Virus record (IMG/VR): IMGVR_UViG_2802429225_000007 | Location: 1-31,354 of that record | DNA length: 31,354 bases | Direction: 5' to 3' (one strand) | Source: a virus | Lineage: Duplodnaviria > Heunggongvirae > Uroviricota > Caudoviricetes | Shown: positions 3,205 to 24,136 of the stretch, one piece after another | Layout of the letters: every line of letters starts with the position of its first letter | Numbering within the stretch: position 1 is the first letter of the stretch | The notes under the pieces: generated by a model | The model's input: the letters and a program-made list of their open reading frames with translations, nothing else | What the model was told of the DNA's origin: nothing | The model's database searches: none | Translations under genes and position numbers: made by a program

Positions 3205-3525
3205 TTAGTAGGGGATTTCAACGGTATCTGGCGTGTATTCGATGCAAAGTAACTGCTGGATTTTGTCATCGATAGCAGCAATACGCTGTTGGGCGTCGGC
3301 GGCTGTTTTCTGTTTTTGCTCACTCAGTTGCTCGACCTGTAAACCGATGATGTCGATTGGCTGAGGCTGGTTGACGGTAATTTCAATTTCGCGGCTTTCC
3401 AGAAGGATGTACCTGTCTGGAAAATTTTTTGACATATCAACAGTCGCAACAAGCAGCTTTTCGTGGCTGAAAGTTGAAGTTGCATAATGAATAAAGAGTG
3501 TTACTGGGATGGTGCGCGCTTCCAT
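3205..3525 (-). CDS. hypothetical early protein, first gene of leftward operon
   Basis: 106-aa ORF with AAGGAG RBS 7 nt upstream of ATG at 3525. Confidence 0.5.
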   Translation of the reverse strand: MEARTIPVTLFIHYATSTFSHEKLLVATVDMSKNFPDRYILLESREIEITVNQPQPIDIIGLQVEQLSEQKQKTAADAQQRIAAIDDKIQQLLCIEYTPDTVEIPY

Positions 3526-3679
3526 AGCGACTCCTTGGTGGGGTATACTCAGAACCGATCAGCGGCTCTGTCGTTGGTCTTTCCTCGGTGTAAGGTTGGT
3601 CCCTTGCACCATATCCGAATGGTTTGGTCGCCGTTCGGGGTAACTGGCCCGCCTTGTGCGGGTCTTTTGCCATCTAAAG

Positions 3680-3702
3680 GGTGCCGTCTTTCCGGCTGTC
3701 AG
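3680..3702. repeat. 23-bp direct repeat GGTGCCGTCTTTCCGGCTGTCAG, copy 1, in leftward leader
   Basis: exact 23/23 identity with 4132-4154. Confidence 0.7.
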
Positions 3703-4131
3703 GGCTGGTCATGCCCGGTCTTTCCTCGTTGCGCCTCTCTGCGAGAGGCTCTGGCTTTCACCAGAGGGTCCCAATAATTACGGTGTAGCGCCCGGAATCG
3801 AACCGGGTAACGGGCAGGGAGTTCCCGTCAAACACCTGTTCACCACAACCGGGAGCGCACTCCGCCATTTCAAAATTTAACGACAAAGCTCAAAGTTGAG
3901 TCGATGAAGTGCGCTCTCGTGTTGTCGCCAGGACTCTTCCCTGGTGGTCACACCGTATCGCCTTGATGGTGAATCAATCGCTCATACCTGGCTGTGGCTT
4001 GCACATTCCGGCTACCTGCTATGGAGACAACGCGTTAAGGCTCCGCTTCCATCCAGACCGCTTCGACACATGTGCCATATGCCGGTGAAGTCTTTCCCTC
4101 TGTCATCGTGTTGGCGCCGACGCGCAAAATT

Positions 4132-4154
4132 TGGTGCCGTCTTTCCGGCTGTCA
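4132..4154. repeat. 23-bp direct repeat GGTGCCGTCTTTCCGGCTGTCAG, copy 2, adjacent to a hairpin at 4155-4171
   Basis: exact 23/23 identity with 3680-3702; followed by TCAGAA-cttgt-TTCTGA hairpin. Confidence 0.7.
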
Positions 4155-4204
4155 GAACTTGTTTCTGAACAACTGCCGCTGGGTAAGCGTTGTTGATGAA
4201 AGTG

Positions 4205-4233
4205 ACTTTACAATTTGTATTTGTAATTGTCAA
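4205..4233 (-). promoter_or_regulatory. candidate leftward early promoter (pL-like)
   Basis: minus strand TTGACA (4233-4228), 17-bp spacer, TAAAGT (4210-4205); overlapped by TTTGTA(A/T)T operator-like repeats. Confidence 0.5.
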
Positions 4234-4352
4234 TGTGTTTTTAAAAAATAATTTGTAGTGAGGGGCAAAAAAATATTCACTGTGTAAAGGTGTTTTTGTG
4301 TTAGGGGGAAAGTTGCATGCCAGCAGCGGCTGGCCTGGAAATTTGAACTGAA

Positions 4353-4781
4353 CTATTTTGTCTGGTTTTTGGCTTCAAGTAGTTCTTTTAGCAGTAGATC
4401 GAAGTGCTCTCTTTTTTCTTTTAGCTCATTGATTAATTTATTTTTTTCGCTCTCAGGCAGTCCTCTGAATAGTTGCAGTAGAGCCTGTTCTTGCGGGGTT
4501 AGTTCTTGATTGTAATTACCCGGGTGTAGCGTGGATTCATCCAAATATTCCCCTTCATTCATGAAGAAAAAATGAACAGGGTATCCGGTCACTTTTGCTA
4601 GTTTGTCTAATTTATCTTTTCTTGGAGTTACCCCATTACACCATGCCTGAACTGATTGAGCCGTAACCCCAATATGGCGAGCTAGCTCAGATTGAGACCA
4701 GCCTAAGTCTTTTAGAATCCGTTGTAGTCGGCTAGCAAAAGCCATGTTTTTCGTTTTTGTGTTCATACCGTAAGGATACAA
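4353..4781 (-). CDS. prophage immunity repressor, XRE-family HTH, no LexA/S24-like autocleavage domain
   Basis: 142 aa; N-terminal HTH (SQSELARHIGVTAQSVQAWCNG); divergent from cro-like gene; C-terminus short and coiled-coil-like, no Ala-Gly / Ser-Lys peptidase region. Confidence 0.7.
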   Translation of the reverse strand: MYPYGMNTKTKNMAFASRLQRILKDLGWSQSELARHIGVTAQSVQAWCNGVTPRKDKLDKLAKVTGYPVHFFFMNEGEYLDESTLHPGNYNQELTPQEQALLQLFRGLPESEKNKLINELKEKREHFDLLLKELLEAKNQTK

Positions 4782-4864
4782 GGTTTAATTGTAGGGAGCA
4801 TTGCAAATATAATTTGTAATTACAGTTATTATTTGTAATGATGACGCGGACACAAGGAGTCCAT
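4782..4864. promoter_or_regulatory. divergent promoter/operator region between repressor and cro-like gene
   Basis: candidate pR TTGTAA (4814-4819), 17 bp, TAATGA (4837-4842); TGTAATTACA palindrome at ~4815-4824; repeated ATTTGTAAT half-sites shared with the pL region. Confidence 0.5.
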
Positions 4865-5095
4865 ATGGATAAACAACTGCAAGACAAAATTCTTTCCGTA
4901 ATGAGTCAATCCGAGTTAGGGCGGCGATTAGGGAAAAAACCACAAACGGTAAGCCTCTGGTTCAAAGGACGGGTTCCCGGTGAAGAGGTTTTGCGCACAT
5001 CTGAAGCTCTTGAATGGCGCGTGACCCCTCATGATCTTAGACCGGATCTTTACCCAAACCCAGATGACAGCTTGCCTAAAACGGAAGCAGCTTAA
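4865..5095 (+). CDS. Cro-like / YdaS-like small HTH regulator
   Basis: AAGGAG RBS 7 nt before ATG at 4865 (track start 4838 is probably too early); HTH SQSELGRRLGKKPQTVSLW; position right of repressor. Confidence 0.6.
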   Translation: MDKQLQDKILSVMSQSELGRRLGKKPQTVSLWFKGRVPGEEVLRTSEALEWRVTPHDLRPDLYPNPDDSLPKTEAA

Positions 5096-5153
5096 CTGTT
5101 GGTGAGCCCCAAATCTGATTAAGCGTAATCAATTTTTAGCGACAGGAGACGCT

Positions 5154-5648
5154 ATGGAAAACCCAGAGGAATTACAAAAAGAGATTTTGACCTGGGCGGC
5201 AAGGGCAGGGCAGGAACTCGTCACGATTGAAATCTGCCGAGCCTGGTTCAGCCAGGGACGCAATGATGAGTTGAGACTACATGAATTTGAGGACACGGAC
5301 GGCAACGTGGACTGGAGAGCCATCAACAACAACCGGCAGAAAATCTTTCGCTGGTTACGTGGCGAGACAACGGCGGCGCGCCGAAAAACTCAGGTGCTGG
5401 CCAGTGTGATGAAAGCCGTGCTACCCGCAGAACGGCGGGCTCGTCTGGAGTCGCCGGGCGAGCCTGTTTTGCTGGCAACGCTGGCGGCAAAAGAAGGGGT
5501 GGAAGCGATTAACGCTGTACATCTCCACTTCGCGCCAGAGTTAACTATCCAGGAAATTGACGAAGCAATAGCGGCGCTGGTAGCGACGCGAGGGGCAGTG
5601 ATAAGCACTGCGCAAGACCACCATGCAGAGCGCCTGACCAGCGTTTAA
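5154..5648 (+). CDS. CII-position regulator (YdaT-like), putative
   Basis: 164-aa ORF immediately downstream of cro-like gene, as in Rac-type immunity regions; family assignment by position and memory only. Confidence 0.35.
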   Translation: MENPEELQKEILTWAARAGQELVTIEICRAWFSQGRNDELRLHEFEDTDGNVDWRAINNNRQKIFRWLRGETTAARRKTQVLASVMKAVLPAERRARLESPGEPVLLATLAAKEGVEAINAVHLHFAPELTIQEIDEAIAALVATRGAVISTAQDHHAERLTSV

Positions 5649-5668
5649 CTTATACCGAGGAAAGACCG

Positions 5669-5893
5669 ATGTTAAGACATATTGACCGTATTACCTGGCG
5701 TAACGGCTGGCACCTGAATGGGCGCCCGGCACATGTTGCAGAGATCCGCCCCATATTCGATGGCCGCGTCGTAGCTGCACGTTCTGTGTGGGAAAAGTAC
5801 GAAGAAGAAAAAGCGAAACTGCGTGAGCAAAATCTCTCTGGCGCTGCCTATGAGGCTGGCTGCCGCGTTCTCTCAGAGGCTTTGGGCATATGA
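5669..5893 (+). CDS. hypothetical protein
   Basis: 74-aa ORF; start preceded by CCGAGGAAAGACC motif; stop overlaps start of the initiator gene. Confidence 0.5.
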   Translation: MLRHIDRITWRNGWHLNGRPAHVAEIRPIFDGRVVAARSVWEKYEEEKAKLREQNLSGAAYEAGCRVLSEALGI

Positions 5894-9679: not shown

Positions 9680-9743
9680 GATGGTGATTTGGAATATCGG
9701 TAATTTTCATTGACGTGATTATAACCCTAGGTTACCATCCAAA

Positions 9744-9763
9744 TACTGTATATTTATACAGTA
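9744..9763 (+). promoter_or_regulatory. LexA (SOS) box overlapping the colicin-like gene promoter
   Basis: TACTGTATATTTATACAGTA, 19/20 to the CTGT-N8-ACAG consensus; candidate -35 TTGACG at 9710-9715 and -10 TACCAT at 9733-9738. Confidence 0.7.
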
Positions 9764-9820
9764 TTTGAAGAGGTGATTATCTAATATCTCTGGGAAATAA
9801 TTATTAAAAGGAAAGTTGAT

Positions 9821-10972
9821 ATGGCATGGACTGGATTTGGAGGTCAATGGAATAACGGTGTGCATTCTGGTGGTGATGATTCTGGCAGTATAGGCGGTGG
9901 AGGCATAAAACTCGACGGCAAAGGGAATCCTGTAGGTACTCGTGCGCCGACAGCCGAGGAGATCGCGTCACAATGGAATAGTTTTGGCGGTAGTCAGATT
10001 AAACCCAGTGATGTATCGAACATCAGGCCGGATGGTGGCGGTACTTATCAGGCTAACATTGCAGGTAATTACCATGTTGTAAGTTCTCAGGGTGCGAATA
10101 CCCCATTTGCTTCGGAACGTAGCAACGTTGCGGCAGGTTTTAGTGGCGGTGTGGGGCCAGCGCCTGGCGGGAGTGCTAACAATAGTGCGCCCAGCAATCC
10201 AAAGGCTGAGGCAGAGGCAAAGAAATGGATTGAAACAGTCAAGGCTGTTCGGGCTGGTAATATCCCCTACGGTTATGTTCTTAACGACGGCAAGGTAGGC
10301 GTAAACGTGCCTCAATATGTTGAACGCCGCAAAGGTCGTGGCGACACATATACCGTTCGGGGTAAAGATTTGTTTGTTGTTTCGCCTGAACTGACAAAAG
10401 CGTATCAGGACGGTCTTGCGGAACGTGCTGAGATTCTGGACGCCGTAAAATTTACGTCTGATTTCTATAAAGACCTTGCAGGTAAATTTGGACAGCATAA
10501 CGCGAACATCGCAAAGGAACTGGCGGAGGCTGCAAAAGGCAAGAAGATTCGTAACAGCAGGGATGCACTGGCGGCGGTGGATAAATTTAATAACCGACTG
10601 AGTAAAAAGTATGGTGCCAAAGACCTTGAGGCAGTTGCCAGGGCTTTGGAATCGGTTAACCGGGATGCAATGGCGAAGAATTTGTCTAAATTTGGTAAGG
10701 CATTTGGTGTCGCAAGTTATGCTGTAGATGCTTACAATGTTCTTTACGTTGAATTTCCGAAAGCTATTCGTACTAAAAACTATCGCCCAATGCTTGTTAA
10801 GTTGGAGGCAATTCTTCTTGGTGCTGATGCAGGTATTGTTGCTGCGTGGGCATTTAGTGCGCTTCTGGCAACGCCGATGGGTATTCTGACGTTTGCGCTT
10901 ATAATGGCATTGCTAAGTGCGATGGTTAATGAAAAACGCATTGAGGAACTGAATAAGTTCTTAGGGATTTAA
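9821..10972 (+). CDS. pore-forming colicin-like bacteriocin (channel-forming colicin C-terminal domain)
   Basis: Gly-rich N-terminus; C-terminal domain aligns by eye with colicin E1-type channel domain (AKGKKIRN, AIRTKNYRPMLVKLE, hydrophobic hairpin, ...KFLGI terminus); AAGGA RBS. Confidence 0.8.
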   Translation: MAWTGFGGQWNNGVHSGGDDSGSIGGGGIKLDGKGNPVGTRAPTAEEIASQWNSFGGSQIKPSDVSNIRPDGGGTYQANIAGNYHVVSSQGANTPFASERSNVAAGFSGGVGPAPGGSANNSAPSNPKAEAEAKKWIETVKAVRAGNIPYGYVLNDGKVGVNVPQYVERRKGRGDTYTVRGKDLFVVSPELTKAYQDGLAERAEILDAVKFTSDFYKDLAGKFGQHNANIAKELAEAAKGKKIRNSRDALAAVDKFNNRLSKKYGAKDLEAVARALESVNRDAMAKNLSKFGKAFGVASYAVDAYNVLYVEFPKAIRTKNYRPMLVKLEAILLGADAGIVAAWAFSALLATPMGILTFALIMALLSAMVNEKRIEELNKFLGI

Positions 10973-10999
10973 CCGTTATCAGTAGTAACCAGGGCCACG

Positions 11000-11344
11000 T
11001 CATGTGGCCTTTTTTGACAATTGAATATAAATAATAAACAGAAGGCCAATGGGAATTGAAAAAATAAAAAGCATACCGTGGTATAAACCCATTACCCCGC
11101 TTTTTAAACAGGTGTCTGTCCACGCCCCTGTTATCCATGATTCGTATGTTGTATATTTGAGAACGATATTTTCTACAGCTTTCTTTGCATATGGGAACAA
11201 GAAACAGCTAATAACAGCAAGCATAACCAAATACTCCCATATCCATAAATCACCTTCAGCTATGGCCTGATGCCACCTGAAAACTGTCATGGCGAGAAAT
11301 ACGCATCCGTACAGGATGTTGCTCAAATAATATCGAAATGTCAT
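11000..11344 (-). CDS. pore-forming-colicin immunity protein (E1/Ia-type), putative
   Basis: 114-aa protein with ~3 TM segments encoded convergently just downstream of the toxin gene, the canonical arrangement; AT-rich. Confidence 0.6.
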   Translation of the reverse strand: MTFRYYLSNILYGCVFLAMTVFRWHQAIAEGDLWIWEYLVMLAVISCFLFPYAKKAVENIVLKYTTYESWITGAWTDTCLKSGVMGLYHGMLFIFSIPIGLLFIIYIQLSKKAT

Positions 11345-11730
11345 CTATGTTCCTTAAGTGTAGAACTCGTCTAACTGTTTTAACCATCCAGAACTCTATG
11401 AATAACATAACATACCAGTCGTTACGAGAGTAAAAGAAAACAATTGGTGACGTTTCTGTATCCGAAATATATCAAATAATAGATATTAAGAATTGTTTCC
11501 TAATATCTATTTGAGGTGTTTATGGATAATATCTATGACGACGAATTGTTCGCAGGGTTTATTGCAAGAGGGGAGCTACATAGTGTTGAGTACCCACTGA
11601 ATGTAGAGAATGCGGACACAGGCTGTTTGAAGTTGATTGAATTGACTTAGAAAAAGCCCGGGGCTATAGTTTCCGCGCAGCCGCAAAATCGGTTGCCGGG
11701 ATTGGCGTCCCGGATATCTAAGTGACGCAT

Positions 11731-11751
11731 AGCCGCGTTAGCGGTTTTTTT
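11731..11751 (+). terminator. candidate intrinsic terminator
   Basis: short GC hairpin (GCCGC-gtta-GCGGT) followed by T7 run. Confidence 0.3.
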
Positions 11752-11912
11752 ATGTGTTAGGCACGGCCACATTCGCATTATGGTGGGCTGTGTGGGGGCT
11801 TCTGCGGAAGCGCCGGGTTCACTTAGCCGGTTACGCCAACCCTGCACAGTTCACCACCAGATGATTGGCGTCGCTGGTGGTGATGAAAAAAACACTAAGT
11901 GAGGCCACTGCG

Positions 11913-12701
11913 ATGACAGTCCAAATATCTGCGGAATCCCTTTCTCCGCTACATCATAACCAACTTCCCGTCATCACTACTGAATTGCTTGCCAGTTTGT
12001 ATGGCACGGAAGTAAATGGTATCCAGCAAAACTTCAAGCGCAACATCGCCAGATTTGTCGTAGGAAAGCATTTTTTTAAGCTGGAAGGTAATGAATTACG
12101 CGACTTCAAAAACAGACTGACAGATAGTCAGTCAGTTGCTAAACATACCCGATCCCTCATTCTCTGGACAGAACGCGGCGCAGCTCGCCATGCCAAAATG
12201 CTGGAAACAGAACAGGCCTGGGAAGTTTTCGAAAAGCTGGAAGATTGTTATTTTAGCCAGCGTCCAGAGAGGCGGAGTACAACCACCGATGACCGCACCC
12301 CCTTACGTGATGCCGTTAATATGCTGGTCGGCAAGAAAGGCATGATGTATCCCGATGCTTATACCATGATTCATCAACGCTTCGCCGTCTCTCACATAGA
12401 ACAACTGTCACAGGCGCAAATGTTAGAGGCGATTGAATACATCCACTGCCTGCTGCTCGATGAAAATCAGCCAACTATTCCGGATTTTTCTTTTATCACC
12501 ACTATCAAAAATGGAAAAGTGACCAGGATGCGCCATGTTGCCAAAGGCGAACATCTGATGACTTTTGACGCTTTCAAAGAGATCGCTGAGCGGGCAGGGT
12601 ATCTGGTGATCCACAGCGACAATCTGCGAAGTATGACACTGGATAAATTGATGCTAATGGGGAAAAAGTCGGCTGTATCCTTTGCTGATTCAGCATTTTG
12701 A
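11913..12701 (+). CDS. phage antirepressor (ORF6N-domain, Ant-like), putative
   Basis: GAGG RBS before ATG 11913 (track start 11865 is probably upstream of the true start); N-terminal region resembles antirepressor ORF6N domain. Confidence 0.5.
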   Translation: MTVQISAESLSPLHHNQLPVITTELLASLYGTEVNGIQQNFKRNIARFVVGKHFFKLEGNELRDFKNRLTDSQSVAKHTRSLILWTERGAARHAKMLETEQAWEVFEKLEDCYFSQRPERRSTTTDDRTPLRDAVNMLVGKKGMMYPDAYTMIHQRFAVSHIEQLSQAQMLEAIEYIHCLLLDENQPTIPDFSFITTIKNGKVTRMRHVAKGEHLMTFDAFKEIAERAGYLVIHSDNLRSMTLDKLMLMGKKSAVSFADSAF

Positions 12702-14948: not shown

Positions 14949-16184
14949 TCAGAATTTCCGTTCTTTCCAGCGTTTAACCAACGCGGCCATGTTCAGCGGC
15001 CATAATTTAGGCTCAATCACTTTGCCTTCAAACATCGCGCCGAGCTCAATACCTGGGGCAAAATGTACGGTCATTGTTTCAGGGTTGACGGCCATCAGCT
15101 CTGCGTCTAGTAAGTCGTGTATCGTTGGAGTCAACAACAGGCCATTATCAGCGCTAAAATTGCCTGAGGTAGCTGGCTCAATGTGCGCCGCTTGCAATCG
15201 TTCGCCGTTCTGCCAGCCAGTCACCGCGCAACGGCCAGCAAAATTATTCCATACCCATTCAACAAACTGCATATGCGCCGTCGCGTCGCGCTGCTCAACG
15301 ATGCGCTGCGCGGTTCGGGTACTGTGGAGTTTGACAGGTTGGCCAAGTGCGGGCGCGGGTTTCTCTTCCTCCACGACGACCACTACTTCCTGCGACATGA
15401 TGATTCGATCATCGGCTACCAGTTCCGGAACAACGTCGGCCAGCTTCTCGGCTTCTCGGATGATTTGCTTTTCTTCCTGCTCATCCAGGTACCGCTGCAC
15501 CAGTTCAATGGTCGTGGTGGCTTCATGCTGGTGTTTGTGGATATAAAGCTCAACATCACGACGCTGGCTGGCTGGAATGTGTTTTGCCAGAAAATCCTGT
15601 AGGACGCGATTATCCAGCTTTGTCGTAACTTTTGATGTCATGCTCACAGAATCATACCGTTTCGGTGTTTCCATCTGCGTTGATTGCAGGCCTGGTAATT
15701 CGGTGTTGATTTGAGCGGAAACCTTGCGCGGGATGATTGTCGGCGTAAATGCTGGCGTGCTGGCCTGGGACGTGCCACGGCGACGGGCATTCTCCCAAAG
15801 GGCTTCTGTTTCAGGGTTTTTGCGTGCGCCTGGCTTTTGCATAGGCATAGTGCGAATCAGCGCTTCCCAGCCCATATTGACCTTCTGTTTGGCCTCGCGG
15901 CGTTTATCGGCCAGCGTAGGTTTTGATGGTCGTTTTTTGGAGAGCGCTTTCTCTGGTTTTAACTTGATGCCGCGCGATAAACCATTTATCAGCGTTGGAT
16001 GCACTGATAAGGCTTTGGCCAATTGCAAACCGTTTAAATTGCTGCCATCTGTATAAGCGTACATAAACAAATCCGCCCAGCCATCATGTTGAGGGGTCAT
16101 ACCCACGCTGGTTAAGGCTGCGCGAATCTCTTTTTTGCGAGCTTTGTCCAAGTTAAATTTTTGGGTTTTATTTCGCTTAGTCAT
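14949..16184 (-). CDS. HNH-endonuclease-domain protein with basic N-terminal region
   Basis: C-terminal CAVTGW...AAHIEP...NGLLLTPTIHDLLD resembles an HNH nuclease motif; 411 aa. Confidence 0.55.
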   Translation of the reverse strand: MTKRNKTQKFNLDKARKKEIRAALTSVGMTPQHDGWADLFMYAYTDGSNLNGLQLAKALSVHPTLINGLSRGIKLKPEKALSKKRPSKPTLADKRREAKQKVNMGWEALIRTMPMQKPGARKNPETEALWENARRRGTSQASTPAFTPTIIPRKVSAQINTELPGLQSTQMETPKRYDSVSMTSKVTTKLDNRVLQDFLAKHIPASQRRDVELYIHKHQHEATTTIELVQRYLDEQEEKQIIREAEKLADVVPELVADDRIIMSQEVVVVVEEEKPAPALGQPVKLHSTRTAQRIVEQRDATAHMQFVEWVWNNFAGRCAVTGWQNGERLQAAHIEPATSGNFSADNGLLLTPTIHDLLDAELMAVNPETMTVHFAPGIELGAMFEGKVIEPKLWPLNMAALVKRWKERKF

Positions 16185-16295: not shown

Positions 16296-17120
<825 letters not shown>

Positions 17121-22170: not shown

Positions 22171-22281
22171 TGACCATAAACGGTTTAATCCCCTATAAAA
22201 CCGTTTAGTAAAATTCACGACGTGAATATAATTGTTCATTATTCCCTCATTGTATTTGGCGTTATGACAAATGCCATAAAA

Positions 22282-22301
22282 TACTGTATAAATGTACAGG
22301 T
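22282..22301 (+). promoter_or_regulatory. LexA (SOS) box-like operator upstream of a small ORF
   Basis: TACTGTATAAATGTACAGGT: CTGT-N8-ACAG core intact, ~16/20 to consensus; sits ~20 nt upstream of ATG 22322. Confidence 0.55.
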
Positions 22302-22321: not shown

Positions 22322-22501
22322 ATGAATATTCAAGAATCTATAGGCGAACTACCGGAAACATGCCGGGCTGTTATCAAGCGTAAGGACGGACACATCGTTG
22401 GTGTGCGTGTTCTGACCGATGATGAACGGATTGCCAGCCTGATGGCGTTTCTCGAGTTGGCAGAAATAGCTGGATATACTATTACACCCCCTGACGCGTA
22501 A
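22322..22501 (+). CDS. small SOS-controlled protein, candidate antirepressor
   Basis: 59-aa ORF (MNIQESIGELPETCRAVIKRKDGHIVGVRVLTDDERIASLMAFLELAEIAGYTITPPDA) with GGGGGAAG RBS; below the track's 60-aa cutoff. Confidence 0.45.
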   Translation: MNIQESIGELPETCRAVIKRKDGHIVGVRVLTDDERIASLMAFLELAEIAGYTITPPDA

Positions 22502-22578: not shown

Positions 22579-23175
22579 ATGGCGCAGCATTCATTTATCA
22601 GGGTATCCGGCGGTTCGCTAATACCCGCGACACCAGACACGCAACGCTGGTTGACTGAACGAGTCAAACCAGGTGCTGTTGTGTATGCAGATTTCAAACA
22701 GGCGCGTAATCCCGCGTTTCATCGTAAATTTTTCTCACTTCTCAACTTGGGCTTTGATTACTGGCATCCGTCCGGAGGGGCTATTTCTCCTGCGGAGCGC
22801 GAACTGGTTCACGGCTACGTTAAGTTACTGGCGTATTACGGTGGACACGGTGATGTCATGGCAGAGCTGGCTGATCAGTATCTTCTCGATGAGTCGGAAA
22901 AGCGCGCGGGGAATATCAGTGCGGTGAAGTCGTTCGAGGCGTTTCGCGCCTGGGCGATTATGGAAGCTGGGTTTTATGACGTTCATCAGATGCCAGATGG
23001 CAGTTTGATGCGCGTACCTCGTTCAATCTCGTTTGCTGCGATGGACGATCTTGAGTTCGGTCAACTGTATTCAGCCGTTTTAGATGTGCTGTGGAATTAT
23101 ATTTTGTTCCGCACGTTTGCCTCTCAGGAGGCCGCTGAAAATGCTGCCGCGCAGCTGCTGGATTACACATCATGA
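22579..23175 (+). CDS. conserved lambdoid nin-region protein (DUF-type), putative
   Basis: 198-aa ORF in the block preceding the Q-like gene; family from memory only. Confidence 0.45.
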   Translation: MAQHSFIRVSGGSLIPATPDTQRWLTERVKPGAVVYADFKQARNPAFHRKFFSLLNLGFDYWHPSGGAISPAERELVHGYVKLLAYYGGHGDVMAELADQYLLDESEKRAGNISAVKSFEAFRAWAIMEAGFYDVHQMPDGSLMRVPRSISFAAMDDLEFGQLYSAVLDVLWNYILFRTFASQEAAENAAAQLLDYTS

Positions 23176-23465
23176 AAAAAATCGATCTGAGAAAAGCTGC
23201 ACGTGGTCGCGCTTGTACTGTGCGTATCCCCGGTGTGTGCAATCACAATCCTGAAACCAGCGTACTGGCTCATTATCGTCTCGCCGGAACGTGCGGCACA
23301 GCCATCAAACCTCACGATATGCAGGGTGCTATCGCCTGCAGTGCGTGTCACGATGCCATCGACGGACGTACAAAAACGGATTACGAGCACGACTCATTGT
23401 TGTTGATGCACGCTGAGGGAGTTTTCAGAACACTGGCTATCTGGCGCGATGAGGAGTTTATCTGA
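23172..23465 (+). CDS. small Cys-rich (zinc-binding-like) nin-region protein
   Basis: 97 aa with CxxxxxxC...C...CxxC pattern; overlapping start/stop with neighbours. Confidence 0.45.
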   Translation: MKKIDLRKAARGRACTVRIPGVCNHNPETSVLAHYRLAGTCGTAIKPHDMQGAIACSACHDAIDGRTKTDYEHDSLLLMHAEGVFRTLAIWRDEEFI

Positions 23466-24136
23466 TGAGTAACGAGTATTTATTGGAATATACCCGCACA
23501 AAACTGCGCGCTGCATTGCGGGATTTGTCTGGTGGTTCTAAGGGGCAACTGGAAGCATTGTGTGAGCACCCGCCGGCAGATAAAAACGCATACCCACGCA
23601 AACATATTCATCGTGTGCAACTGGAGGACCGAACCGTTGATGCTCTGGTTACGCCAGTTTATGCTCTGGAAAGTTTCAGCAGACGTCGCCCCGCGCCGCC
23701 GATGAATGATTTTGAATTCGCTGATTCATCGTGGCGCCGCGCCGTGAACTCGCTCGACGTTAGTCAGCAGGCGTGGTTGCGCTATTGCTACGGTGGTAAC
23801 CTGGCGTTCAAACACCAAACAGCTATTTGTGAGGCTGTCTGGAGTCGCTATAAAGGAAACATCCCCGCGTCAACTCAGAGAAAAATAGTCAAGCGCCTGC
23901 TTTCGTTGGTGTGGTTGTCCGTGCAGGCGGTTGCAGCAGCAAATAAACGCGAGGATTTTAAGGAGATGGCCGGATCTGCGCTAGCTGGAATGCTGTCGGT
24001 TTCTCGTTCCACCTGGTGCGAAACATACTCCCCGCACTGGGTAGGAATGAAAGAGGCGGTGAGAGCACTTGATGAAGTGGCACTTCTTGCAACTTTGCAT
24101 CATTATCAGAACCATTTAGACGACGTTTGCGTATAA
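23465..24136 (+). CDS. late-gene antitermination protein Q-like, putative
   Basis: 223-aa ORF immediately upstream of a promoter plus short terminator and the lysis genes; assignment mainly positional. Confidence 0.5.
   Translation: MSNEYLLEYTRTKLRAALRDLSGGSKGQLEALCEHPPADKNAYPRKHIHRVQLEDRTVDALVTPVYALESFSRRRPAPPMNDFEFADSSWRRAVNSLDVSQQAWLRYCYGGNLAFKHQTAICEAVWSRYKGNIPASTQRKIVKRLLSLVWLSVQAVAAANKREDFKEMAGSALAGMLSVSRSTWCETYSPHWVGMKEAVRALDEVALLATLHHYQNHLDDVCV

What the first reader, a model, noticed from the sequence alone, without database searches (positions are those of the whole stretch)
4205..5095. Immunity region with a non-cleavable repressor and repeated ATTTGTAAT operator-like sites at both early promoters
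Seen: the 142-aa repressor has an HTH but no peptidase-like C-terminal domain; ATTTGTAAT-type motifs recur at the pR/pRM region (4811-4840, including palindrome TGTAATTACA) and over the pL-like promoter (4213-4256). An Ant-like ORF6N protein (11913-12701) and a LexA-boxed small ORF (22322) are encoded elsewhere. Inference: antirepressor-driven rather than RecA-cleavage-driven induction.
Basis: partly seen in the sequence, partly recalled or inferred. Interest (0 to 1): 0.45.

Follow-up and report, generated by a model that had tools for sequence, protein, structure and literature searches.

The report
Gifsy-type prophage immunity switch with antirepressor
This is the on/off switch of an E. coli prophage whose short repressor cannot cut itself and is most likely switched off, after DNA damage, by a small LexA-controlled antirepressor; the design is already known from the Salmonella Gifsy phages, so this is a well-supported new example, not a new mechanism.

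Summary
Window 4205-5650 is a lambdoid immunity region. It has a leftward repressor (most likely 137 aa, from ATG 4766), a rightward YdaS/Cro-like gene and a YdaT/CII-like gene.

The repeated motif is better described as a 19-bp palindrome, TTACAA-N7-TTGTAA. With at most one mismatch it occurs three times (OL1, OR2, OR1) against 0.10 expected. Weaker OR3 and OL2 sites lie beside them. The sites cover PL, PR and a probable leaderless PRM, and they are kept in Salmonella and Klebsiella relatives.

The repressor has an HTH domain, a linker and two C-terminal helices, with no S24 peptidase. [quoted passage not shown]

The LexA-boxed 59-aa ORF (22322-22501) is homologous to FsoA, the validated antirepressor of GtgR (hhalign 97.8%). 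It sits before an irsA/DUF1367 gene, as gftA does in Gifsy-2.

The ORF6N gene is an AnrP-like antirepressor preceded by IsrK and C4 RNAs. Its C-terminus also holds an FsoA-like domain.

Verdict: a new member of a known kind, of modest interest.

The parts
4353..4766 (-). Prophage repressor gene (CI analogue, GtgR/GfoR family). Most likely 137 aa from ATG 4766.
   Evidence: ORF list. HTH_3 only, no peptidase. 33% identity over the full length to Gifsy-2 GtgR, E 5e-23. All-helical model. Conserved TATCCT-N6-ATG and a conserved N-terminal extension in relatives.
4820..4838 (.). OR1, operator TTACAGTTATTATTTGTAA. Lies in the spacer and over the -10 of PR.
   Evidence: One mismatch to TTACAA-N7-TTGTAA. 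Conserved in L007, L010 and L012.
4801..4819 (.). OR2, operator TTGCAAATATAATTTGTAA. Covers the -35 of PR and abuts the weak -35 of PRM.
4776..4794 (.). OR3, weaker operator ATACAAGGTTTAATTGTAG. Overlaps the putative PRM -10 and spacer.
   Evidence: Two mismatches. The equivalent site is present in all relatives.
4773..4778 (-). Putative PRM -10 (TATCCT on the minus strand), 6 nt before ATG 4766. Predicts a leaderless repressor mRNA.
   Evidence: Coordinates. Invariant in four divergent loci. Analogy to leaderless paaR2 and lambda cI (PMC8630535). Inferred, not shown.
4814..4842 (+). Putative PR: -35 TTGTAA (4814-4819), 17-nt spacer with TGn, -10 AATGAT (4837-4842). The Shine-Dalgarno AAGGAG lies at 4854-4859.
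   Evidence: Relaxed promoter scan and coordinates. Inferred.
4865..5095 (+). Cro analogue (YdaS family), 76 aa.
   Evidence: PF15943 YdaS, E 1e-8. phrog_35, E 3e-24. 36% identity to Rac YdaS.
5115..5132 (.). YdaT-box-like inverted repeat CTGATT-N6-AATCAA between the cro-like and ydaT-like genes. Candidate PRE activator site.
   Evidence: One mismatch to the published YdaT site TTGATT-N6-AATCAA (abstract of PMC9986795, seen). Two hits in the window against 0.15 expected.
5154..5648 (+). CII analogue (YdaT family), 164 aa.
   Evidence: PF06254, E 2e-15. phrog_163 CII-like activator, E 2e-42. PDB 3c4r and 8bt1. 38% identity to Rac YdaT.
4205..4233 (-). PL-like promoter: TTGACA (4233-4228), 17-nt spacer, TAAAGT (4210-4205).
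   Evidence: Promoter scan, 10 of 12 matches. The same layout is seen in relatives.
4208..4226 (.). OL1, perfect operator TTACAATTTGTATTTGTAA. Lies in the PL spacer and over its -10.
   Evidence: Zero mismatches.
4240..4258 (.). OL2, weak operator TTTAAAAAATAATTTGTAG, just upstream of the PL -35.
   Evidence: Three mismatches. Relatives show a similar sequence (e.g. CTACAAATAAAATTTTAAA in L007) just upstream of their TTGAC PL -35.
22282..22301 (.). LexA box TACTGTATAAATGTACAGGT (16 of 20 matches to consensus). Overlaps the -10 (TATAAA) of a promoter whose -35 is ATGACA (22265-22270).
   Evidence: CTGT-N8-ACAG is kept in 7 of 8 E. coli variants while the flanks differ, and in four Klebsiella loci.
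22322..22501 (+). 59-aa candidate SOS-controlled antirepressor (GfoA/FsoA family, phrog_340).
   Evidence: BLASTP against FsoA: 41% identity over 39 aa, E 3e-8. hhalign 97.8%. Profile hit E 2.8e-13. FsoA identity proven by primers. Confident hairpin-plus-helix model, pLDDT 89.8.
22579..23175 (+). irsA homolog (DUF1367), the next gene after the antirepressor, as in Gifsy-2.
   Evidence: 56% identity to Gifsy-2 STM1020, E 9e-83. Gifsy gene order and PMC3121763.
11664..11861 (+). IsrK sRNA, C4 antisense RNA and a1/b1 target elements, directly upstream of the ORF6N gene.
   Evidence: Rfam RF01394 (80 bits), RF01695 (74.5 bits) and RF03163 (53 bits), all above gathering score. The same set lies upstream of anrP in Gifsy-1.
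11913..12701 (+). ORF6N antirepressor-like protein (AnrP-like N-terminus, FsoA-like domain at residues ~197-238). A second candidate antirepressor.
   Evidence: PF10543. phrog_4792. 74% identity to Gifsy-1 STM2616/AnrP over residues 1-116. FsoA-family profile hit E 2e-9 in the C-terminal part.

Best explanation
The region is the immunity switch of a lambdoid E. coli prophage of the Gifsy type.

In the lysogen, a short repressor binds 19-bp palindromic operators (TTACAA-N7-TTGTAA). The repressor is an HTH domain joined by a linker to a helical oligomerisation tail. Binding at OR1 and OR2 shuts PR, the promoter of the YdaS/Cro-like and YdaT/CII-like genes. Binding at OL1 and OL2 shuts PL. Repressor at OR2 probably helps a weak, leaderless PRM, and repressor at OR3 probably limits it.

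The repressor has no S24 peptidase domain, so it cannot autocleave on RecA filaments. The SOS signal enters about 17.5 kb away instead. There, LexA sits on a box that overlaps the promoter of a 59-aa GfoA/FsoA-family protein. When LexA is cleaved, this protein is made. It then binds the repressor and strips it from the operators, which starts the lytic programme.

A second protein carries the same FsoA-like domain fused to an ORF6N domain. It is held in check by a P1-immI-like C4/IsrK antisense-RNA module and may provide a second input that does not depend on SOS.

Shown here in silico: gene identities, operator statistics and conservation, absence of a peptidase fold, homology to GtgR and FsoA, and conservation of the LexA box. 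Inferred: the exact promoters, the leaderless start, and the physical interaction between repressor and antirepressor.
For: - Architecture and families.
- Operators: 3 hits at one mismatch or fewer against 0.10 expected. They sit on PL and on PR/PRM. Half-sites are invariant while the spacers vary in Salmonella and Klebsiella relatives whose repressors are 66-88% identical. The motif is absent from Gifsy-1, Gifsy-2 and the Rac immunity region.
- No peptidase: Pfam and the all-helical model. The top fold match is SinR in its SinI complex, an HTH plus helical tail that is targeted by a small antagonist.
- Full-length homology to GtgR. GtgR is experimentally non-cleaved and controlled by antirepressors (PMC3121763).
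- The small ORF is an FsoA homolog. FsoA's identity is proven from the published primers. The GfoA C-terminus RRLGYRVTPPSDI resembles ours, AEIAGYTITPPDA.
- Synteny LexA box, small ORF, irsA.
- The LexA box is conserved in 7 of 8 E. coli variants and in four Klebsiella prophages, where a 63-aa homolog (40% identity, E 6e-13) accompanies a 67%-identical repressor despite different late genes.
- The immunity region is present in 449 of 5426 complete E. coli genomes and the LexA/small-ORF segment in 445.
Against: - There is no experiment on this phage; everything rests on homology and context.
- Antirepressor specificity in this family is idiosyncratic. GfoA does not act on GtgR, whereas FsoA does (PMC3121763). 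Homology to FsoA therefore does not prove that the 59-aa protein targets the resident repressor.
- The repressor is only 33% identical to GtgR.
- The dinI gene that heads the Gifsy operon is missing here.
- Similarity to GftA itself is not significant (no BLASTP hit; hhalign 7%).
- Co-occurrence within E. coli mostly reflects one prophage lineage and is not independent evidence.
- One E. coli variant (ETEC1738) has a 2-bp deletion in the LexA box yet keeps an identical repressor.
- FsoA-like ORFs also occur beside 229-aa CI repressors in Stx phages, so the family is not exclusive to short repressors.
Confidence: 0.72

Rival explanations
1. The cognate inducer is the ORF6N/AnrP-like antirepressor (11913-12701), released from C4/IsrK antisense-RNA control. 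The LexA-controlled 59-aa protein would act mainly in trans on repressors of other resident prophages (crosstalk) or have another role.
For: The ORF6N protein matches anti-repressor PHROGs over its full length. It carries its own FsoA-like domain. It is preceded by IsrK, C4 and a1b1 RNAs, as in Gifsy-1, where IsrK activates AnrP and then the antQ operon (PMC4825925). Cross-acting antirepressors are documented (PMC3121763).
Against: In the Gifsy phages the SOS-dependent inducer is the small LexA-controlled protein, not AnrP. The Klebsiella relatives keep the LexA box and small ORF with the same repressor family, and no ORF6N gene was called within the 10 kb examined. Some E. coli relatives of this prophage have lost or disrupted the ORF6N gene but keep the small ORF (L015-L018).
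Confidence: 0.13
2. The switch has no SOS input. Like CP-933P (PaaR2/YdaS/YdaT) or Rac (RacR/YdaS/YdaT), it would be a bistable or locked cryptic-prophage switch, and the LexA-controlled ORF would be unrelated to immunity.
For: The Cro and CII analogues are of the YdaS and YdaT families, as in CP-933P and Rac. PaaR2 also lacks a peptidase domain and does not respond to mitomycin C (PMC8630535). Several relatives carry IS insertions or a split terminase gene.
Against: The repressor resembles RacR only in the HTH domain but resembles GtgR over its full length. The LexA box, FsoA homolog and irsA module is conserved and syntenic with the functional Gifsy module. A phage with an identical small ORF was deposited as an isolated phage, vB_EcoM-705R4.
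Confidence: 0.1
3. Classical lambda-type induction: RecA-stimulated autocleavage of the repressor.
For: None beyond the general lambdoid gene order and the 434-like HTH.
Against: There is no S24 match. The protein has only about 70 residues after the HTH, and they are predicted as a linker plus two helices. Its closest characterised homolog is not cleaved.
Confidence: 0.02
4. SOS acts mainly by read-through. The LexA-controlled promoter at about 22265-22295 would transcribe through the small ORF, DUF1367 and YbcO into the Q antiterminator gene (23465-24136). Late genes would then turn on without any need to inactivate the repressor.
For: Same-strand gene order: small ORF, DUF1367, YbcO, Q. No strong terminator was seen between them when reading the sequence.
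Against: In Gifsy-2, expression of gftA alone was sufficient for induction, and frameshifting it abolished induction. Late-gene expression without excision and replication would be abortive for the phage.
Confidence: 0.05

Closest known systems
Salmonella Gifsy-1/-2/-3 repressor-antirepressor induction system (GfoR/GtgR/GfhR with GfoA/GftA/GfhA) and Fels-1 FsoA; Lemire, Figueroa-Bossi & Bossi 2011, PMC3121763
   Same: A short repressor without a peptidase domain that is homologous over its full length to GtgR. A LexA box in front of a small antirepressor gene, placed outside the immunity region and followed by an irsA/DUF1367 gene. The small protein is homologous to FsoA and shares the C-terminal GY-x-(V/I)-TPP motif with GfoA.
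   Different: - No dinI gene heads the LexA operon.
- The Cro and CII analogues are of the YdaS/YdaT type, not the Gifsy types.
- The operator sequence differs; the motif is absent from Gifsy-1 and Gifsy-2.
- The host is E. coli and the virion module is a contractile-tail type.
- The repressor is only 33% identical to GtgR, so antirepressor specificity is unknown.
CP-933P PaaR2/YdaS/YdaT switch (Jurenas et al. 2021, PMC8630535) and Rac RacR/YdaS/YdaT
   Same: A divergent CI-like repressor without a peptidase domain, facing YdaS (Cro-like) and YdaT (CII-like) genes. Multiple palindromic operators over PR/PRM and a distant PL. A likely leaderless repressor mRNA. A YdaT-box between the cro-like and ydaT-like genes.
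   Different: There is no paaA2-parE2 toxin-antitoxin pair downstream of the repressor. The operators differ (GTTTAGTAA-type repeats in CP-933P). Similarity to RacR is limited to the HTH. Unlike those cryptic elements, this one has an SOS-linked antirepressor module.
Phage 186 Tum and N15 AntC (LexA-controlled antirepressors)
   Same: The same logic: LexA represses an antirepressor gene, and the antirepressor protein inactivates a non-cleavable immunity repressor (from PMC3121763).
   Different: No sequence relationship was tested or seen. Tum is 146 aa and contains a DinI-like half.
P1/P7 immI module (c4 antisense RNA, icd, ant) and the Gifsy-1 isrK-orf45-anrP locus (Hershko-Shalev et al. 2016, PMC4825925)
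   Same: Rfam C4, a1b1 and isrK elements lie directly upstream of an antirepressor-like gene. The N-terminal ORF6N domain is 74% identical to Gifsy-1 AnrP/STM2616.
   Different: The C-terminal half differs from AnrP and contains an FsoA-like domain. In Gifsy-1 the module lies downstream of Q; here it lies upstream, next to the replication/nin region.
Bacillus SinR-SinI and the SPbeta-type repressor/small-antirepressor pairs (PDB 1b0n, 9iaq, 9sf2)
   Same: The repressor model's best fold matches are HTH domains with a helical multimerisation tail that are antagonised by small proteins.
   Different: This is only a weak fold-level analogy (Foldseek E about 1e-3, TM 0.42-0.53). There is no sequence homology beyond the HTH domain.

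Membership tests
Gifsy-type non-cleavable prophage repressors (GfoR/GtgR family) | Small size (about 130-150 aa) with an N-terminal Cro/C1-type HTH and no S24 peptidase domain | tested here: met
   130-137 aa. HTH_3 E 1.9e-12 with no peptidase hit. All-helical model.
Gifsy-type non-cleavable prophage repressors (GfoR/GtgR family) | Sequence homology to GtgR or GfoR over the whole length, including the C-terminal helical region | tested here: met
   33% identity and 57% positives over residues 3-130 against GtgR residues 11-137, E 5e-23. The shared motif LLxLFxxLPExEK appears in the alignment.
Gifsy-type non-cleavable prophage repressors (GfoR/GtgR family) | The repressor stays intact during SOS induction and is displaced from DNA by antirepressor binding | not testable with these tools
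   Needs a Western blot after mitomycin C treatment and EMSA with the purified proteins.
LexA-controlled small antirepressors (GfoA/GftA/FsoA family) | Sequence homology to a validated member | tested here: met
   FsoA: BLASTP E 3e-8, hhalign 97.8%, profile E 2.8e-13. FsoA identified through primers le154 and le162. GftA: not significant.
LexA-controlled small antirepressors (GfoA/GftA/FsoA family) | Gene lies outside the immunity region, under a LexA box that overlaps its promoter | tested here: met
   The box at 22282-22301 matches the consensus at 16 of 20 positions and lies 17.5 kb from the repressor. It is conserved in 7 of 8 E. coli and 4 of 4 Klebsiella loci. LexA binding itself was not tested.
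LexA-controlled small antirepressors (GfoA/GftA/FsoA family) | Gifsy operon layout dinI - antirepressor - irsA | tested here: not met
   The irsA homolog follows the small ORF (56% identity), but there is no dinI gene between the LexA box and the small ORF. The layout is only partly conserved.
LexA-controlled small antirepressors (GfoA/GftA/FsoA family) | Binds the cognate repressor and causes prophage induction when expressed alone | not testable with these tools
   Requires genetics or biochemistry.
Lambda CI / LexA-type autocleaving repressors (peptidase S24) | C-terminal S24 domain with a Ser-Lys dyad and an Ala-Gly cleavage site | tested here: not met
   No S24 hit. No Ala-Gly or Cys-Gly dipeptide in the sequence (read). 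The C-terminal part is helical.
YdaS/YdaT-type lambdoid switches (Rac, CP-933P) | YdaS-family Cro analogue followed by a YdaT-family CII analogue, divergent from the repressor gene | tested here: met
   PF15943 E 1e-8 and PF06254 E 2e-15. BLASTP against Rac YdaS and YdaT. PDB 8bt1 YdaT E 1.6e-4.
YdaS/YdaT-type lambdoid switches (Rac, CP-933P) | Repressor homologous to RacR or PaaR2 | tested here: inconclusive
   RacR shares only 33 residues of the HTH (E 4e-5). The PaaR2 sequence could not be obtained.
P1 immI-type antisense-controlled antirepressor module | C4 antisense RNA with a1/b1 target elements upstream of an ant gene | tested here: met
   RF01695 at 74.5 bits, RF03163 at 52.9 bits and RF01394 at 80.4 bits, all above gathering score, at 11664-11861. 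The ant-like gene starts at 11913.

The most novel reading that the evidence does not exclude
The prophage carries two antirepressors built on the same FsoA/GfoA-like repressor-binding domain. One is a free-standing 59-aa protein under LexA control. The other is fused to an ORF6N domain and gated by the C4/IsrK antisense-RNA module. The same non-cleavable repressor could then be switched off by two independent signals: DNA damage, or an RNA-controlled, possibly superinfection- or growth-phase-dependent cue. The swappable C-terminal domain of AnrP-like proteins would set which repressor family they attack.
Probability: 0.25. Interest if true: 0.5.

Novelty: new member of a known kind. Interest (0 to 1): 0.27.

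Why it matters
- Reach in E. coli. The region extends the experimentally established Gifsy induction scheme (a non-cleavable repressor plus a LexA-controlled small antirepressor) to a prophage lineage found in about 8% of complete E. coli genomes. These include many human isolates.
- A testable circuit. The analysis names the operators (TTACAA-N7-TTGTAA), the promoters, the LexA box and the candidate antirepressor, so the circuit can be tested directly.
- Family link. It ties the uncharacterised phrog_340 family to the validated antirepressor FsoA. FsoA-like ORFs are also present in Stx-converting phages. This could matter for understanding cross-induction among co-resident prophages after treatment with antibiotics that trigger the SOS response.
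- Limit. The mechanism itself is not new. Lemire et al. already predicted that gfoR/gtgR homologues are widespread in E. coli.

Tried and rejected
1. Megablast of the immunity region against 50,697 phage records found nothing. Annotation had to come from E. coli chromosomes.
2. The 9-mer ATTTGTAAT with one mismatch is not enriched across the window (11 found, 12 expected). I rejected it as the operator unit in favour of the 19-bp palindrome.
3. The PDB sequence search with the 59-aa ORF and with the ORF6N protein gave no hits. Foldseek of the 59-aa model against the PDB gave nothing significant (best E 0.7).
4. Direct BLASTP of the 59-aa ORF against GftA gave no alignment. hhalign of the family against GftA gave 4% and against the GftA family 7%. 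The link to the validated antirepressors came only through FsoA.
5. Similarity to RacR is limited to the HTH, so the repressor is not filed as RacR-like.
6. I considered ImmA/IrrE-type proteolysis of the repressor, because relatives carry an ImmA/IrrE gene in the moron region. None of the moron-region ORFs scanned with Pfam in the window gave such a hit.
7. Co-occurrence counts in E. coli (449 against 445 genomes) reflect one prophage lineage. I did not treat them as independent evidence. The Klebsiella loci served that purpose instead.
8. NZ_CP057738.1 is not in the collection.
9. PaaR2 could not be compared because no sequence was retrievable.
Full report
WHAT IS THERE

The window is a prophage. 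The stretch 3900-5700 is 95-99% identical to chromosomal prophage DNA in 449 of 5,426 complete E. coli genomes. In strain YZMc3-1 the prophage lies next to tRNA-Ser and mtfA. It carries an integrase, a RecE-like exonuclease, RepO, a DnaB helicase, Q, lysis genes, lambda-like head genes and a contractile tail.

The flagged region holds three genes. A minus-strand HTH gene (4353-4781 as the longest ORF) faces a plus-strand YdaS-family gene (4865-5095), which is followed by a YdaT-family gene (5154-5648). PHROGs label them transcriptional regulator/repressor, repressor (Cro-like) and CII-like activator. This is the layout shown experimentally to be a CI/Cro/CII-type switch in the cryptic prophage CP-933P, and argued to be one in Rac (PMC8630535; PMC5917428).

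THE OPERATORS

It has three exact copies, all in the two intergenic patches, against about 0.35 expected. With one mismatch it is not enriched (11 found, 12 expected).

The repeat finder showed that the copies are arms of 19-22-bp inverted repeats. The unit is TTACAA-N7-TTGTAA:
- OL1 4208-4226, perfect
- OR2 4801-4819, 1 mismatch
- OR1 4820-4838, 1 mismatch

These are the only hits in 31 kb at one mismatch or fewer. The expected number is 0.10, and none of 100 shuffles reached three. Weaker sites lie at 4776-4794 (OR3) and 4240-4258 (OL2).

OL1 fills the spacer and -10 of a strong leftward promoter (TTGACA, 17 nt, TAAAGT). OR1 and OR2 cover a rightward extended -10 promoter (TTGTAA, 17 nt, TGtAATGAT).

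CONSERVATION IN RELATIVES

Relatives with repressors 66-88% identical come from a Salmonella assembly (L012), from loci whose repressor cluster is named Klebsiella pneumoniae (L007), and from a further assembly (L010). They keep the same half-sites at the same positions while the N7 spacers vary. They also keep the same OL2 / -35 / OL1 layout at PL. Gifsy-1 and Gifsy-2 lack the motif, and the one loose match in the Rac locus lies outside its racR-ydaS intergenic region.

The recognition helix (VTAQSVQ) is invariant in the family and resembles that of the 434 repressor. The 434 operator also has ACAA/TTGT half-sites; that last point is from my own knowledge, and the resemblance is only a lead.

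All four loci keep TATCCT followed by six bases and ATG on the repressor strand. That is the spacing expected for a leaderless transcript. Leaderless transcripts were shown for paaR2 and for lambda cI. The likely start is therefore ATG 4766, giving 137 aa. The conserved basic N-terminal extension in relatives agrees with this.

A CTGATT-N6-AATCAA repeat at 5115-5132 matches the published YdaT site with one mismatch. It lies between the cro-like and ydaT-like genes, where the PRE promoter of CP-933P lies.

THE REPRESSOR IS NOT AN AUTOCLEAVING ONE

Pfam finds only HTH families. The AlphaFold model (mean pLDDT 76) shows a five-helix HTH, a disordered linker, and a short and a long helix. The best fold matches are HTH proteins with helical tails, led by SinR in its complex with SinI.

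The decisive comparison is with Gifsy-2 GtgR: 33% identity over the whole length, E 5e-23, including the C-terminal LLxLFxxLPExEK helix region. Lemire et al. showed that GtgR, GfoR and GfhR are not cleaved on induction. [quoted passage not shown] THE CANDIDATE ANTIREPRESSOR

A good LexA box, TACTGTATAAATGTACAGGT (16 of 20 matches to consensus), overlaps a promoter 20 nt upstream of the Shine-Dalgarno sequence and ATG of a 59-aa ORF at 22322-22501. The next gene (22579-23175, DUF1367) is 56% identical to Gifsy-2 STM1020, the irsA homolog that follows gftA. The position is therefore that of gftA, although no dinI gene is present.

The 59-aa protein shows no BLASTP similarity to GftA, and profile comparison gives only 7% probability. 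A profile of its family does hit one Fels-1 ORF, STM0898.2n, at E 2.8e-13. The pairwise BLASTP E-value is 3e-8 and the hhalign probability is 97.8%.

Primer sequences in Table S1 of Lemire et al. settle what that ORF is. The PBAD-fsoA primer encodes MNSQQMM, and the fsoA::3xFLAG primer encodes EAGIRFEEISNVG. These are the N- and C-termini of STM0898.2n. That ORF is therefore FsoA, the antirepressor shown to inactivate GtgR.

Two further links tie the family together. The gfoA::3xFLAG primer encodes a C-terminus RRLGYRVTPPSDI, close to AEIAGYTITPPDA in the window's protein. The GftA profile's best non-self hit is FsoA (E 0.056), which agrees with the paper's statement that the three are related.

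The 59-aa protein gives a confident model: a beta-hairpin plus a helix, pLDDT 89.8. It has no PDB neighbour.

INDEPENDENT SUPPORT FROM CONTEXT

The CTGT-N8-ACAG box is kept upstream of 75-100%-identical variants in 7 of 8 E. coli loci while the flanks diverge. The exception has a 2-bp deletion in the AT run.

In four Klebsiella prophage loci the repressor is 67% identical with the same operators, but the late genes differ (a different head-tail connector family). Each of these has a 63-aa homolog (40% identity, E 6e-13). It sits between a near-consensus LexA box and a DUF1367 gene.

Within E. coli the two modules occur in almost the same number of genomes (449 and 445). That mostly reflects one prophage lineage.

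THE ORF6N GENE

The gene at 11913-12701 is an ORF6N protein. It matches anti-repressor PHROGs over its full length. Directly upstream, Rfam finds the a1/b1 targets, IsrK and the C4 antisense RNA. This is the P1 immI-type arrangement. It is also the arrangement upstream of anrP (STM2616) in Gifsy-1, where IsrK activates AnrP translation and AnrP raises antQ transcription (PMC4825925).

The N-terminal 116 residues are 74% identical to AnrP. The C-terminal half differs and contains an FsoA-like segment at residues about 197-238. This protein is a second candidate antirepressor, controlled by RNA and not by LexA.

FsoA-like ORFs also lie in the PL operons of Stx-converting phages and phi467. There they sit next to 229-aa CI proteins whose HTH domains are 48-53% identical to this repressor. 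That mirrors fsoA in Fels-1.

MECHANISM AND RIVALS

The best-supported reading is the Gifsy scheme. LexA cleavage derepresses the 59-aa FsoA/GfoA-family protein. That protein binds the repressor and releases PR and PL. Confidence is about 0.7.

The main uncertainty is specificity. Family membership does not show that this antirepressor targets this repressor, because the published antirepressors act on only some of the repressors.

Rivals:
- The ORF6N protein is the main inducer.
- The switch is SOS-blind and bistable, like CP-933P.
- Transcription from the LexA promoter reads through into Q.
- Classical autocleavage, which is effectively excluded.

COMPARISON AND VERDICT

This is a new member of the Gifsy-type repressor/antirepressor class. 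It combines that class with a YdaS/YdaT-type Cro/CII pair and has its own operator specificity. Lemire et al. already predicted that such systems are common in E. coli. The finding is sound but not surprising. The small new points are:
- the operator definition;
- the probable leaderless PRM;
- the assignment of phrog_340 to the FsoA/GfoA antirepressor family;
- the FsoA-like domain in an AnrP-like protein.

IN PASSING

A colicin-like cassette lies at about 9700-11400. It has a near-consensus LexA box, a 383-aa protein with a pore-forming colicin domain, and an opposite-strand colicin E1-type immunity gene. It has no megablast match in any complete E. coli genome. The best plasmid-borne colicins are only 44-54% identical over the pore domain. 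This may deserve its own follow-up.

Noticed in passing
window 9744-11344: A prophage-borne colicin-like cassette. It has a near-consensus LexA box (TACTGTATATTTATACAGTA, 9744-9763) and a 383-aa ORF (9821-10972) with a glycine-rich N-terminus and a pore-forming colicin domain (PF01024, E 3.5e-45). An opposite-strand 114-aa ORF (11000-11344) matches the colicin E1 immunity family (PF03526, E 1.5e-8). There is no megablast match in 5,426 complete E. coli genomes, and the best plasmid colicins are only 44-54% identical over the pore domain. It appears to be an insertion relative to the YZMc3-1 prophage.
   Followed up: partly
window 11664-11861: Rfam IsrK sRNA, C4 antisense RNA and a1/b1 target elements lie directly upstream of the ORF6N antirepressor-like gene. 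This is a P1 immI / Gifsy-1 isrK-anrP type module in an E. coli prophage.
   Followed up: partly
window 11913-12701 (residues ~197-238): The ORF6N protein shares its N-terminal 116 residues with Gifsy-1 AnrP (74% identity). Its C-terminal half is different and contains a domain homologous to the small FsoA/GfoA antirepressors. This suggests modular swapping of a repressor-targeting domain.
   Followed up: partly
window 16296-17099 (-) and 14949-16184 (-): The moron region carries a PD-T4-3 anti-phage defence gene (PADLOC E 8e-138; GIY-YIG LEM-3-like) and a neighbouring HNH_2 protein. Several further ORFs between 12.8 and 22.2 kb have no family assignment.
   Followed up: no
window 3526-4204: About 680 nt between the PL promoter and the first convincing leftward ORF (3205-3525) have no annotated gene, either here or in relatives. 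No Rfam family matches. The stretch could hold an N/nut-like or sRNA function.
   Followed up: no
L007, L010, L012 (3410/3431-3904), compared with window 4260-4352: Salmonella and Klebsiella relatives carry a 157-aa gene with no Pfam family between the repressor gene and PL, in the position of rexAB. The window lacks this gene.
   Followed up: no
L016 9960-9985 (E. coli ETEC1738): One variant of the prophage has a 2-bp deletion in the AT run of the LexA box (CTGT-N6-ACAG) while keeping a 100%-identical repressor. This is either a decaying prophage (its terminase gene is split) or an assembly slip.
   Followed up: partly
P0020 (481 aa) and P0025 (680 aa): Two long metagenomic proteins contain 4-5 tandem stretches similar to the 59-aa antirepressor-like domain. 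Pfam gives no convincing assignment for them.
   Followed up: no
L027 1925-2107 (Stx2d phage Stx2_112808), L028 4424-4633 (phi467): FsoA-like small ORFs sit in the PL operons of Stx-converting phages and phi467, next to 229-aa CI proteins whose HTH domains are 48-53% identical to this repressor. The arrangement is the same as fsoA in Fels-1 and hints at antirepressor crosstalk involving Stx phages.
   Followed up: partly
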